A stretch of DNA of 64,000 nt from NCBI GenBank assembly GCA_009914755.4, contig CP086569.2, positions 7,936,001 to 8,000,000 on the forward strand. The letters are read 5' to 3'. This document shows, in pieces, positions 30,936 to 64,000 of the stretch; position 1 is the first letter of the stretch, and each line of letters opens with the position of its first letter. Source of the DNA: the human T2T-CHM13v2.0 reference genome, Homo sapiens. A program made the position numbers and the translations under genes. The notes beneath the pieces were generated by a model that saw only the letters and a list, made by a program, of their open reading frames with translations, was not told the origin of the DNA and searched no databases.

Positions 30936-33084
30936 CTCTTTTTCCTTGGTGTTTTCCTAAGGAAGCCTTGTGACATATCTCAGGACCCAGCACCGAGGTG
31001 ATGTGGCCCTTTTGCCTGGTTTCTTCCCATGTGTTAGACTGTGACATATACCTAAAGAAACACCTAGGTGATGCCACTCTCTTCTTCTTCTTGAGTCCTG
31101 CTTCAGGACATAGTGACTCTATATACACACCTAGGTAACAGTTAAAGGTGCCACCCTCAAAGATGAGCAGATTGTGTCATATCACTGGGCCTAGTACCCA
31201 GTTGTTAAAACTTTTGCTTAAATTATTTCTTGTGTGTATTGTGACATATCATGTCAGAATCATAATAATGTGACACTTTTGCCCTGGCCCTGCCAACAAG
31301 AGATATCATCACATATCTCTGAGCCTAACTGGTAGGTGATTTGTCTTTTTCTTGTGCTTTGCCCCCAAGAAATATTGTGATATTTTTGTATGTAGCATCT
31401 AGGAAATGTATCTCTTCTCTCTTGCCTAGGACCTCCCTACTAAAGGAATTGTGCCATACAGCTGAGTGCAAAACCTTGGTAGTGCAACTTTCCCCTTTAT
31501 TCTGGAGTTTGTTACGAGAGGGGATTATGACATATTGCTGAGCCCAGCACCTAGGTGATGTGAGTTTCCTGTTTTTTTCAACCCTGTCTACAGTGGACAT
31601 GGTGCCATATTACTTGTGGCTGTATCCAGGTGATGTGACTCTCCTTGCTTGCCCCTGCCAGCAAAGGAGTTGATAGTGTATCAGGAGCTCAGCATCAAGG
31701 TGATGAGACTCTCCTTCCTTGTTTTTGCCCACAGGTGAAATTATGTCATATGCCTGGGATCATCTCACATGCACAATTATAACCATCAAACTGGGACCCA
31801 GAAAGGAGAGAGATTTTGATTCTTATAGCTAGTCTTATTGCCATAAGTAAAATAATGGGTCTCCTAATTGTATAAAGTTCACAGAGGATTATGACACTCA
31901 GACATATCATATAAAGCCTCAGTGGTAAAAAGAGTGTCATGATAGGGAAGAACAACCTGGGGTGATTGCAAATCATGGAGGCACACCCAGCTAGCTTGAT
32001 TGTCATTCTTACACAAGAACATGGCCTACAAGTAGGGTACTAAATTTCACACAAAAGAGCAGTCAAAGGTTGAAATTTTTCCCCTCATACACGGTTCAAC
32101 CCCATGGGTAGTGTGGTGATGCAATATTCAGCCCAACTGTGAGATTGTGACTTTCCTACTGGAACATAATCTTCAAGTGGAACTGGACAACTTATGCATG
32201 GATCCTGTTAAGACTGTGAGTCCTCAGCTTTGACTCAACTCACAGGAGATGTTGACTCACATGCACAAAGCCAGGACTTGTGTAGGGCTGTGGAACTTAT
32301 TTCTGAATATTTCCAAGTGTGTGATTAGAATGTAGAAGTTAGCCCAGCTCCTGAATAATTTGACTCTCCTTTTTAGGCCATGACCACAGATAAAATTGTG
32401 ACATATGTGGACAGTACACCTAAGCAAAGCTTCCTGGGCCTGACTACCAAGGATACTTTTACATATCATTGGGACTAGCATCAAGGTGAGGTGAATTCTT
32501 TGTCTTTTCCCTGCCTACAAAAGGCATTGTGGCTTACAGTTAAGTCCATCATATAAGTTCATATAAGTGATGTCACTCCCTTCTAGTGCCTTGGCCCTGC
32601 TATTTCAGTTCATTGTGACACATAACTGGGTACTGCACCCAGGTGATATGACTCTCTGTTTAGGGTTCTGCCAGCAGGAAGCTTTGTAACATATCACTTA
32701 GCTCAGCACCTAGCTAATGCTTCTTCTCTCTTGCCTTGCTGTGATCAGAGGGGAGACTGTTTCATATTGCTAACCCTAGTGCTGAAGTCATGTCACTTTC
32801 ATACCGTGGTTCTGAACATAGTGAACATTGTGACATGTCTAGGCCAATTCCTTAGGTAAAGTGAGTCTCCTCATCCTCTTAAGATTTGCTCACAGGGGGA
32901 ATTTTGATTTATCACTAAAACCAGTATCCAGCTGATGTGAGTCTTATTCCAGGGTCCTGCCCACAAGAAAGATTGTGACATCTCACTGGACCAGCACCCA
33001 CCCAAATGATGTGACATTTCTGTTTGTTCTCTGCCCACAGGTCATATTGTGCCATATACCTAACACCACTTAAGATGACTAATC

Positions 33085-33410
33085 ATGAATTTTTTTTTTT
33101 TTTTTTTTTTTTTTTTTTTTTTTTTTTTGAGACGGAGTCTCGCTCTGTCGCCCAGGCTGGAGTGCAGTGGCGGGATCTCGGCTCACTGCAAGCTCCGCCT
33201 CCCGGGTTCACGCCATTCTCCTGCCTCAGCCTCCCGAGTAGCTGGGACTACAGGCACCCGCTACCACGCCCGGCTAATTTTTTGTATTTTTAGTAGAGAC
33301 GGGGTTTCACCGTGTTAGCCAGGATGGTCTCGATCTCCTGACCTCGTGATCCGCCCGCCTCGGCCTCCCAAAGTGCTGGGATTACAGGCATGAGCCACTG
33401 CGCCCAGCCT
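33085..33410 (-). mobile_element. AluY-like SINE inserted in the array, minus orientation, with a very long (about 43 nt) poly-T and a TSD (taatcatga)
   Basis: ttttt(x43)gagacggagtctcgctctgtcgcccaggctggagtgcagtggcgggatctcggctcactgcaagctccgcctcccgggttcacgccattctcctgcctcagcctcccgagtagctgggactacaggcacccgctaccacgcccggc...ggattacaggcatgagccactgcgcccagcc. The TSD is present as gactaatcatgaa before and taatcatgac after. Confidence 0.9.
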
Positions 33411-63000: not shown

Positions 63001-64000
63001 TACATCTCCTGCCTGGGCCCTGTTAACAGGAGGCATTGTGAAATATTTTTGGGCCCACCATTAAGTGAAATGACCCTACTCTCCTGCTCTGACACTTCCC
63101 ACAAAGGACACTGTGCCAAGAGCTGGACCTTGCACACAAGTGTTTTGACATTTATGACAAGACCTTGCCTACAAAGAGAATATTGGAATAATTCTGGCCC
63201 AGCATTTAGGTAATATGGCTGTTCTTCCTGCTTCATAGCCATACAAAGAATTGTAATATATACCTAGGCATGGTTCACAGGAATGATAATGACTGTCATA
63301 TGGGGATTGAGATAATAGAGGTTATTTTAACTCTTATAACCAAGTTTAGGTACATGCATGATGTCCTGAATAACGTTCTTATACAAATGTCACAAAAGAT
63401 TACAACATTTACACATATTTTACAAAGTCTTTGGGTTATAGAGACAGAGTCACAGCAGGGCTCAGAACACAGGTTAAATTGTGTCTTGTATGCACACCCT
63501 GCTGACAGTAAAGACTGTCATTATCTCACATGGATAAAGACAAATATCACACATGAAAACAGGATATGTGTGGTATTGTAAATCTCATCTTTGCAATTAT
63601 CTAACACTGTGATTGTGATATAAATCTGTGCCAAGCACTTGTGTAATTTGACTCTCCTGACTTGTTGCAGCCCACATATGGGATTGTGATATCTGGCTAG
63701 GCCAAACTGAAGGTGACATGATTCTCCTACCTGGGCCCTTCTCTGAGTAAGGATTGTAACATACTGAATCTAGCACCCAGGTGATGTTATATTCTTGCCT
63801 GCACCATGCCCACCAAAATTATTGTGTCATATTTTTGTGTCCTCCTCATAGATGATGTAACTCTGCTCTCTGGAATGGGCCATGCACAGATGAAAGATAG
63901 TGACATATTGCAAGGCCAGACACAGAGTTGAGGGTATTACTTTGCCAGAGCAATATTCAAAGGAGGGCATTGTGAATTATATCTGGGCCTATCACCTGAG

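What the first reader, a model, noticed from the sequence alone, without database searches (positions are those of the whole stretch)
30936..64000. The 74-bp unit appears to be an ancient dimer of a ~37-bp motif
Within the consensus unit, the first half (GTGACATATTGCTGAGCCCAGCACCTAG) and the second half (GTGACTCTCCTCTTCTGCCTGGGCCCTGCCCACAG) share the pattern GTGAC-4nt-(T)GCTG-R-GCCC. This suggests the present 74-bp monomer arose by duplication and divergence of a ~37-bp ancestor, which gives the array a three-level hierarchy of 37, 74 and about 7000 bp. Hierarchies of this kind are typical of centromeric and pericentromeric satellites and give a handle on evolutionary history.
Basis: inference. 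Interest (0 to 1): 0.5.

Follow-up and report, generated by a model that had tools for sequence, protein, structure and literature searches.

The report
Decayed beta-satellite array with half-unit substructure
The repeat is an old, badly decayed relative of the known primate beta satellite, and its roughly 71-base unit does look like two diverged copies of a 33-38-base motif, which is an ordinary way for satellite DNA to be built.

Summary
The half-unit similarity is real. A consensus of 136 full-length units is 71 nt long. It splits best at its two GTGAC motifs into halves of 33 and 38 nt. The halves share 25 identities over 33 ungapped columns (p=4e-4 against shuffles, 4e-3 against natural 71-mers; profile-profile z=4.7). 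Raw autocorrelation shows a secondary hump at lags 36-38. TRF detects neither period, because the units are only 55% identical to one another.

The array is a divergent relative of beta satellite. Its consensus is 76% identical, colinear over the full length, to a canonical 68-bp beta-satellite consensus that I rebuilt from metagenome contigs and checked against published primers. It lacks three defining features of that family: the Sau3A site, the GATCAGTGC block and the 68-bp period.

The half similarity appears in the same register in all four consensuses compared, and also between lineages. A duplication older than the split of the lineages is therefore the best explanation (about 0.6). 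Recurrent blocks of about 300 bp carry a dominant 38-bp period.

Units are 71 and 76 bp, not 74. The higher order is multi-level (about 1.6 kb, 5-8.5 kb, 15-17 kb), not simply 7 kb. The array starts near 25536 and is split by an L1. This is a known kind of sequence and of low interest.

The parts
25536..25654 (+). Leftmost recognisable units of the array, upstream of the L1 insertion. The unit starting at 25610 continues at 30944 after the L1 and one target-site duplication copy are removed.
   Evidence: Monomer profile hit at 25610-25653. Sequence read directly.
25655..30924 (-). L1 retrotransposon inserted into the array; it is an interruption, not part of the satellite. The body is on the minus strand and an inverted 5' piece at 30612-30924 is on the plus strand. 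The flanking 19-nt direct repeats AGATGATGTWACTCTTTTT lie at 25636-25654 and 30925-30943.
   Evidence: Pfam hits RVT_1 and Exo_endo_phos on minus-strand ORFs, and L1 ORF1 domains on the + ORF at 30612-31001. Target-site duplication found.
30925..64000 (+). Main body of the divergent beta-satellite-like array. Units are 71 or 76 bp, all in one orientation, and the array runs off the window end.
   Evidence: nhmmer profiles. Recognisable units cover 19.1 of 33.1 kb. Mean pairwise unit identity is 55%, and 69% to the consensus.
48655..48687 (+). Example of half-unit H1 (GTGACATAT... type, 33 nt) in a well-preserved unit at 48655-48726.
48688..48726 (+). Example of half-unit H2 (GTGACTCTC... type, 38-39 nt) of the same unit.
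35671..36072 (+). Diverged block, family A. Other copies start at 39333, 43105, 44907, 50238, 52960, 58165 and 60219. Its dominant internal period is 38 bp.
36134..36361 (+). Diverged block, family B. It follows A after one unit. Other copies start at 43475, 45289, 53427, 58537 and 60598.
37269..37569 (+). Diverged block, family C. Other copies start at 31741, 40574, 46214, 54575 and 61383. It is followed by three consecutive H2-like units of about 37 nt (37576-37684).
34048..34376 (+). Diverged block, family D. Other copies start at 41409, 48075, 51346 and 63299.

Best explanation
The region is an old array of a divergent relative of primate beta satellite (the BSR / Sau3A family) that is no longer being homogenised. 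I give this identification a confidence of about 0.9.

Its 71/76-bp unit most likely arose when a motif of about 33-38 bp, starting (A)TTGTGAC, was duplicated in tandem. The two copies then diverged into H1 (GTGAC-ATAT...CTGGGCCC-AGCACCTAGGTGAT) and H2 (GTGAC-TCTCC...CTGGGCCC-TGCCCACAGGAGGAATT). This happened before the divergent and canonical beta-satellite lineages separated. I give this dimer origin a confidence of about 0.6.

The dimer was then amplified by unequal exchange or slippage, and neighbouring units diverged. Next, modules of about 1.6 kb were copied, each a run of units plus a ~300-bp block that keeps a 38-bp period. Blocks of several modules followed (5-8.5 kb), and finally blocks about 15-17 kb apart. 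After that, homogenisation stopped and the array decayed. The consensus is 59% GC but the present sequence is 41.5% GC, CpG observed/expected is 0.10, and the array has taken in an L1 and three Alus.

Shown here: the array, its homology to beta satellite, the half similarity and its register, the 38-bp tracts, and the multi-level self-similarity. Inferred: the order of these events and the mechanisms. No function is required by the data, and none was tested.
For: Identity of the array. A pattern scan of metagenome contigs followed by my unit profile found 13 related arrays. Eight of them have regular 68-69 bp units. Their consensus is GTGACATATCTCTGCACTGATCACCCAGGTGATGTAACTCTTGTCTAGGCTCTGCCTACAGGGGCATT, 50% GC, with GATC in 180 of 203 units, and TRF reports period 68. 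This consensus contains the published BSR primers TCCCCTGTAGGCAGAGA (15 of 17 nt exact, on the reverse strand) and CACTGATAACCCAGGTGA (one mismatch) from PMC4787827. It also contains the conserved block GATCAGTGC described in PMC2671837. The window consensus aligns to it at 54 of 71 positions over the full length.

Dimer origin. See for the statistics. The best circular split is (0,33) in all four consensuses: window z=4.1; L071 z=3.3, p=7e-4; the 74-bp group z=2.9, p=0.006; canonical z=2.05, p=0.03. Cross-lineage half comparisons are all raised: H1win-H2beta 22/32, H2win-H1beta 23/32, H1beta-H2beta 21/31. The orthologous halves pair more closely still, at 25/33 and 29/35, which is what a duplication older than the split predicts. 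Half-period autocorrelation is seen. In the diverged blocks, lag 38 is the strongest lag in the pooled block sequences (0.308 against a baseline of 0.260). It is also the top lag among lags 10-130 in the consensus of families A, C and D.

Higher order and decay.
Against: All units descend from one ancestral unit, so the effective sample is about 33 aligned positions with 5 gap columns. Against natural 71-mers the p is only 0.004, and 0.019 with the 94-unit consensus. The ungapped signal does not survive correction over all shifts (p=0.25). The canonical consensus alone is marginal (p=0.03).

The largest shared block, CTGGGCCC, occurs in both halves only in the divergent lineages. Canonical H1 has CTGCACTGATC at that place. 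Part of the similarity could therefore be a later exchange between the halves.

No free-standing array of the half unit was found. The 38-bp tracts are confined to about 150 nt of one ancestral block, and a profile of that unit recovered only block edges.

The beta-satellite reference used here is my own consensus, checked only against short published primers and a 9-nt block. It was not checked against a curated Dfam or Repbase entry.
Confidence: 0.6

Rival explanations
1. The similarity between the halves is secondary. Short-tract gene conversion, slippage or a small internal duplication copied the CTGGGCCC-containing segment from one half to the other in the divergent lineage. On this reading the unit is not an ancient dimer.
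For: The 8-nt block is identical in H1 and H2 of the window, G2 and L071 consensuses but absent from canonical H1. Within the central block, window H1 is closer to window H2 than to canonical H1 (sequence read). Within-lineage similarity (25/33) is a little higher than cross-lineage similarity (21-23 of 31-32).
Against: The canonical consensus, which lacks that block in H1, still gives its best split at the same register (21/31, p=0.03). Cross-lineage half comparisons also stay above the null mean. Similarity is also present in the GTGAC start and in the ...AGG.G.AT tail, outside the block. The block is already present in the much older diverged blocks (GGGCCCAGCA in families A and D).
Confidence: 0.17
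2. The resemblance is chance plus local composition. Each unit has a GTGAY motif three times and G/C-rich stretches, and the reader picked the split after seeing the GTGAC motifs.
For: The ungapped test corrected over all shifts gives p=0.25. About 0.4-2% of natural 71-mers from the flank reach the observed score.
Against: The test over all circular splits already pays for the choice of split and still gives p=4e-4. The profile test gives z=4.7, while the reversed control behaves like the null. The same register recurs in four consensuses. An independent 38-bp period is present in the diverged blocks.
Confidence: 0.15
3. Both halves are held similar by selection, because each carries a binding site for the same protein. 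On this reading the similarity is functional convergence or constraint rather than history.
For: Beta-satellite units are reported to have enhancer activity and to bind ZNF555 (PMC4787827). A conserved block has been proposed as a protein-binding site (PMC2671837). GTGACATAT is the best-kept stretch of the window unit.
Against: The array shows the opposite of constraint. Units are 55% identical to one another, GC has fallen from 59% to 41.5%, CpG observed/expected is 0.10, and there are transposon insertions. The published conserved block is absent here. The apparent conservation of GTGACATAT is inflated, because units were delimited by profile hits that start on that motif. No binding data were available.
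Confidence: 0.05

Closest known systems
Human/primate beta satellite (BSR, Sau3A family; 68-bp monomer)
   Same: Colinear homology over the whole unit: 54 of 71 consensus positions. The same GTGACATAT...AGGTGATGT(G/A)ACTCT...CTGCC(C/T)ACAGG framework. Tandem, single-orientation arrays with multimeric higher-order organisation. A GC-rich inferred ancestor.
   Different: Units are 71 and 76 bp rather than 67-69 bp. The Sau3A site is present in 13% of units against 89% in canonical units. The conserved block GATCAGTGC is absent. Units are far more diverged (55% pairwise identity, against a mean column maximum of 0.87 in the canonical arrays). The array is interrupted by transposons.
'Divergent' beta-satellite arrays: divergent Sau3A repeats (title of Agresti et al. 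1989), the divergent array at 3p12.3 (PMC3488192), and the 25-30 kb complex beta-satellite blocks flanking ZNF genes in 19p12 (Eichler et al. 1998, recalled from memory; the paper could not be read here)
   Same: A large block (at least 33 kb) of highly diverged beta-like units with complex higher-order structure, next to ordinary DNA rich in interspersed repeats. Related metagenome loci (the 74-bp group) carry units in both orientations, as described for the inverted blocks.
   Different: The location of this window could not be determined. No ZNF gene lies in the 25 kb to the left, where the only long ORFs with Pfam hits are L1. Within the window all units have one orientation.
Satellites whose monomer is built of shorter sub-repeats, such as the 234-bp mouse major satellite made of ~58-bp and ~28-30-bp sub-repeats, and dimeric alpha-satellite units (established knowledge, not tested here)
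   Same: A unit that resolves into two diverged copies of a shorter motif, followed by amplification of the compound unit and then of multi-unit blocks.
   Different: Only two sub-repeats, with lengths 33 and 38 (or 43) nt. Support is statistical (about 76% of ungapped positions) rather than obvious by eye.
Beta-composite arrays (beta satellite interspersed with LSau; T2T centromere preprint)
   Same: Runs of units regularly interrupted by a different recurrent segment.
   Different: The interrupting ~300-bp blocks here are AT-rich, contain GTGAC-type starts every ~33-38 nt, and look like derivatives of the unit itself. No LSau reference was available, so the comparison was not made.

Membership tests
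Beta satellite (BSR / Sau3A family), strict sense | Tandem monomer of about 68 bp (67-69) | tested here: not met
   Spacing modes are 71, 70 and 76 bp. The canonical loci give 66-71 bp, mostly 68-69, and TRF period 68.
Beta satellite (BSR / Sau3A family), strict sense | Sau3A site (GATC) in nearly every monomer | tested here: not met
   18 of 136 window units against 180 of 203 canonical units. GATC is under-represented in the array, 75 seen against 121 expected.
Beta satellite (BSR / Sau3A family), strict sense | Conserved block GATCAGTGC (PMC2671837) | tested here: not met
   At up to 1 mismatch, 8 matches in the window against 14 expected, and none in register with the units. The consensus has CTGGGCCCAG at that place.
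Beta satellite superfamily (homology) | Sequence homology to the beta-satellite monomer over its full length | tested here: met
   54 of 71 identities, colinear, with 3 gap columns. A profile built only from window units hits canonical arrays at E down to about 1e-11 and hits every unit in tandem. The reference consensus was checked against published primers and the conserved block.
Beta satellite superfamily (homology) | GC-rich composition (47-53%) | tested here: inconclusive
   The consensus is 59% GC, but the present array is 41.5% GC with CpG observed/expected of 0.10. This is consistent with decay from a GC-rich ancestor.
Beta satellite superfamily (homology) | Pericentromeric, acrocentric short-arm or subtelomeric location | not testable with these tools
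   No primate genome is searchable here. The flank holds L1, an LTR12-like repeat and Alus.
Satellite with an actively homogenised higher-order repeat (as in active alpha-satellite or pB3/pB4 beta arrays) | Higher-order copies much more alike than neighbouring monomers, typically above 95% | tested here: not met
   Best partners lie kilobases away (78% unit identity, against 55.7% for neighbours). Block copies are only 67-78% identical and their offsets are irregular. This is a fossil higher-order structure.
Monomer formed by duplication of a half-length motif | Half-half similarity above chance, at a split not chosen by eye | tested here: met
   The best of all circular splits is (0,33). p=4e-4 against shuffles and 4e-3 against natural 71-mers. 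Profile z=4.7.
Monomer formed by duplication of a half-length motif | Same register and similarity in related lineages, showing the duplication is older than their split | tested here: met
   The split is (0,33) in four consensuses. Cross-lineage half pairs give 21-23 identities of 31-32. The canonical consensus alone is weak (p=0.03).
Monomer formed by duplication of a half-length motif | Existence of arrays or tracts with the half-length period | tested here: inconclusive
   A 38-bp period dominates the ~300-bp diverged blocks. It is confined to about 150 nt of one ancestral block, and these tracts could be derived rather than ancestral. TRF finds no such period.
Beta-composite array (beta satellite + LSau) | LSau elements interspersed with the monomers | not tested
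   No LSau sequence was available. The interspersed blocks look unit-derived.

The most novel reading that the evidence does not exclude
The 68-bp beta-satellite monomer as a whole is an ancient dimer of a ~35-38-bp unit. Divergent 71/76-bp arrays such as this one stand closer to that ancestor than the canonical Sau3A-type monomer does. On this reading the canonical signature block GATCAGTGC is a later replacement of an H2-like CTGGGCCC segment. The 38-bp-periodic tracts with hybrid GTGACTCTCATAT starts would then be relics of the array before it became dimeric. I found no statement of this in the papers I could search, but the founding papers (1985-2004) were not readable here.
Probability: 0.3. 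Interest if true: 0.35.

Novelty: already known. Interest (0 to 1): 0.2.

Why it matters
Little changes in practice. The region is a fossil member of a satellite family that has been described since 1985, and building a monomer from shorter sub-repeats is a classic pattern in satellite DNA. The work has three modest uses.

First, it shows that an array invisible to TRF, with 55% identity between units, can still be recovered and classified using an iterated profile.

Second, it gives a testable polarity for beta-satellite evolution. In that scheme the divergent 71/76-bp type is closer to a dimeric ancestor, and the Sau3A block of the canonical type is derived.

Third, it corrects the boundaries and periods that any annotation of this window would inherit.

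Tried and rejected
- TRF on the window at minimum scores 50 and 30 finds no 71-76 bp or 35-38 bp period.
- Rfam at gathering threshold on the whole window: no hits.
- Pfam on the ten longest ORFs: only L1 domains, with no gene that would place the locus. ORFs in the GC-rich 1-3000 region did not look coding, so I ran no further search on them.
- Literature search for arrays of 71/76-bp repeats found nothing relevant.
- Waye & Willard 1989, Eichler 1998 and Cardone 2004 are not held in the library. A search for a published half-repeat structure of beta satellite and two reviews did not mention one.
- Ungapped circular profile autocorrelation alone is not significant after correction over all shifts.
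- A profile of the putative 38-nt 'U' unit recovered only about 35 hits, mostly at block edges. I therefore do not claim a defined ancestral half-unit family.
- I considered by eye whether CAGCACCTAGGTGATG is a decayed CTCF-type site. It mismatches the positions I recall as most informative, no matrix was available, and I dropped the idea.
- I considered dating the array from 67-78% block identity. I rejected a numeric age because the local rate cannot be calibrated here.
- I considered a single 7-kb higher-order repeat and rejected it in favour of a multi-level, irregular structure.
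Full report
WHAT IS THERE. The window is catarrhine-primate-type DNA. It holds an L1 with RT, endonuclease and ORF1 domains, a young AluY-like element with a 39-A tail and a target-site duplication, and LTR12-like 41-bp repeats. TRF reports no array in 30936-64000 at any threshold. The motif GTGACATAT, allowing one mismatch, nevertheless occurs 150 times against 21 expected, almost all on the + strand beyond 30.9 kb. An iterated nhmmer profile finds about 281-311 units, with only five weak minus-strand hits, from 30925 to 63998. Unit spacing has modes at 71 (74 times), 70 (36 times) and 76 (29 times) bp. 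The 76-bp form has about 5 extra pyrimidines after consensus position 49. Units are only 55% identical to one another and 69% identical to their consensus, which explains why TRF fails.

THE OBSERVATION. From 136 full-length units the consensus is GTGACATATTGCTGGGCCCAGCACCTAGGTGAT|GTGACTCTCCTGCCTGGGCCCTGCCCACAGGAGGAATT. I scored every circular rotation and every half length from 31 to 35 by gapped global alignment. The best split is exactly at the two GTGAC motifs, with 25 identities over 33 ungapped columns and 38 alignment columns. Only 0.04% of 5000 shuffles reach that score, and only 0.42% of 5000 natural 71-mers taken from window 1-30000. Two other consensuses give scores of 6 and 8. Four scoring schemes at the fixed split give z=3.5-4.1. 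A profile-profile alignment gives 15.9 bits against 4.1 +/- 2.5 for column permutations, and 4.2 for reversed H2.

The ungapped circular autocorrelation of the profile peaks at shift 35/36, but it is not significant once all shifts are allowed for. The signal therefore depends on a few indels. Raw autocorrelation over the 33 kb shows the full-period peaks (0.297 at lag 71, 0.292 at lag 76), a clear half-period hump (0.281 at lag 36, 0.285 at lag 38) and a one-and-a-half-period hump (lags 105-113). The baseline is about 0.257.

WHAT IT IS. One scan of metagenome contigs with TGACATAT repeated three times at unit spacing, screened with the window profile, gave 13 related arrays.

- Eight arrays have very regular 68-69 bp units. 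Their consensus is 50% GC, has GATC in 89% of units, and gives TRF period 68. The published BSR primers match it: the forward primer has a 15-nt exact core and the reverse primer has one mismatch (PMC4787827). The consensus also contains the conserved block GATCAGTGC (PMC2671837), and 17 nt of a primer used to amplify across pLAM match it. These eight arrays are canonical beta satellite.
- Four loci are 96% identical to one another, have 71/76-bp spacing and a 74-nt consensus, and one of them contains an Alu.
- One locus (L071) is 81% identical to window 56731-58385 over its whole length.

The window consensus is 54/71 identical to the canonical consensus, colinear over the full length. The window array is therefore a divergent relative of beta satellite. 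It does not meet three of that family's defining features: the 68-bp period, the Sau3A site (13% of units) and the GATCAGTGC block. Its consensus is 59% GC, but the sequence today is 41.5% GC with CpG observed/expected of 0.10, so it has decayed a long way.

From memory, large (25-30 kb) complex blocks of diverged beta satellite flank ZNF genes in 19p12 (Eichler et al. 1998). I could not read that paper or place the window, so this is a lead and not a result.

DOES THE DIMER READING HOLD ACROSS THE FAMILY? The best split is (0,33) in all four consensuses. The strength falls from the window (z=4.1) through L071 (z=3.3) and the 74-bp group (z=2.9) to the canonical type (z=2.05, p=0.03). Cross-lineage half comparisons are all raised: 22/32, 23/32 and 21/31. 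Halves pair most closely with their orthologues, at 25/33 ungapped and 29/35. This is the pattern expected if the duplication is older than the split of the lineages.

The caveat is the 8-nt block CTGGGCCC. It is shared by both halves only in the divergent lineages, and canonical H1 has CTGCACTGATC, which contains its signature Sau3A block, at that place. Either canonical H1 replaced this segment, or the divergent lineage copied it between its halves. I cannot tell which without outgroups.

HALF-LENGTH PERIOD IN THE ARRAY ITSELF. Recognisable units cover 19.1 of 33.1 kb. Most of the remainder is a set of recurrent segments of 220-470 bp. They fall into four families (A-D) that are homologous to one another at 70-80% identity and that contain GTGAC- or GTCAT-type starts every ~33-38 nt. 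In the pooled sequence of these blocks the strongest autocorrelation lag is 38 (0.308 against a baseline of 0.260; 0.289 at lag 69; 0.277 at lag 76). Lag 38 is also the top lag between 10 and 130 in the consensus of families A, C and D. The signal is concentrated in the right-hand ~150 nt of the block, at 40-52% identity.

A parse with separate H1 and H2 models gives 225 H1>H2 and 217 H2>H1 steps. It also gives 19 H2>H2 and 5 H1>H1 steps, mostly at block edges. A hybrid start, GTGACTCTCATAT, occurs 38 times against 2 expected. These tracts show that a unit of about 38 bp is a real structural level here. They could be relics of the ancestral array or a later local amplification. A profile of the unit was too weak to decide.

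HIGHER ORDER. Neighbouring units are no more alike (55.7%) than random pairs (55.4%). Each unit's best partner is 78% identical and lies kilobases away, most often at about 15 kb (23 units), 17.5 kb (16), 7 kb (11), 8.5 kb (11) or 5.5 kb (10). The order of unit lengths recurs, for example 71,71,71,76,76,76,70. The A/C/D blocks recur every 0.8-2.3 kb, about 1.6 kb on average, in a pattern such as C, D, A-B(A-B). Self-alignments of 1-3.3 kb have identities of 67-78% at many offsets. The largest amounts of aligned sequence and the highest identities are at about 15 kb (75.4%) and 17 kb (73.9%). The 6.5-7.5 kb bins sit at 70-71%. So 'about 7000 bp' is one level among several. The whole is a fossil higher-order structure and not a live one.

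BOUNDARIES. A 19-nt direct repeat at 25636-25654 and 30925-30943 brackets a 5.27-kb L1. With the L1 removed, the unit that starts at 25610 continues into 30944 and beyond. One further unit is recognisable from about 25536. The array therefore starts about 5.4 kb to the left of the coordinates given, and it runs off the right end of the window.

MECHANISM AND VERDICT. The best account has five steps: tandem duplication of a 33-38-nt motif; divergence of the two copies; amplification of the dimer; successive amplification of larger modules by unequal exchange; then loss of homogenisation and neutral decay with transposon insertions. The identification as a divergent beta-satellite relative is secure (about 0.9). 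The dimer origin is probable but not proven (about 0.6). The main rivals are later exchange between the halves (about 0.17) and chance or composition (about 0.15). Nothing here calls for a function. This is a known kind of sequence with a classic kind of internal structure, so interest is low.

Noticed in passing
window 25636-30943: A 5.27-kb L1 lies inside the array. Its body is on the minus strand and its 5' piece (ORF1 domains, 30612-30924) is inverted onto the plus strand, the layout expected from twin priming. It is flanked by 19-nt target-site duplications that differ at one base.
   Followed up: yes
window 33091-33401 (minus), 53750-54047 (minus), 59688-60029 (plus): Three Alu insertions inside the array. 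The first is AluY-like, with a 39-A tail and the target-site duplication TCATGATTA, so it inserted long after the array had decayed.
   Followed up: partly
window 36460-36680: An AT-rich compound microsatellite (TA/TATG-type, TRF periods 2-46) sits inside the array, between a family-B block and the next run of units.
   Followed up: no
window 19039-19924: Tandem repeats of 41 and 119 bp containing CCAATCAGCAC, plus a 102-bp repeat. From memory this resembles an LTR12 (HERV9) LTR. It was not tested.
   Followed up: no
window 1-2000: A GC-rich stretch (57% GC) at the left end, with no ORF that looked coding and no Pfam hit for the one ORF tried. It may be a CpG-island-like or transcribed region that could help place the locus.
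   Followed up: partly
L106, L118, L102, L026 (metagenome contigs): These 96%-identical loci carry 71/76-bp units in both orientations (for example 40 minus and 9 plus hits in L106 and in L118). They therefore span an inversion junction between oppositely oriented divergent beta-like arrays.
   Followed up: no
L118 6286-7403: A separate GC-rich tandem repeat of 139 bp (7.9 copies, 72% matches) lies beside the beta-like array. It is of unknown family.
   Followed up: no
L071 (whole, 1656 bp) vs window 56731-58385: This contig is 81% identical to one window block over its whole length, which is closer than any block pair inside the window (at most 78%). It may be a paralogous block beyond the window or an orthologue from another primate.
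   Followed up: partly
window 37576-37684, 61728-61848, 32147-32249: At the right edge of family-C blocks, three consecutive units of about 37 nt all score as H2-type. This arrangement is conserved between module copies.
   Followed up: partly
window 30925-64000 as a whole: Block copies are only 67-78% identical. On ordinary primate substitution rates this would make the duplications older than the Old World monkey origin usually quoted for beta satellite. Either the local rate is high or the lineage is older than is thought.
   Followed up: no
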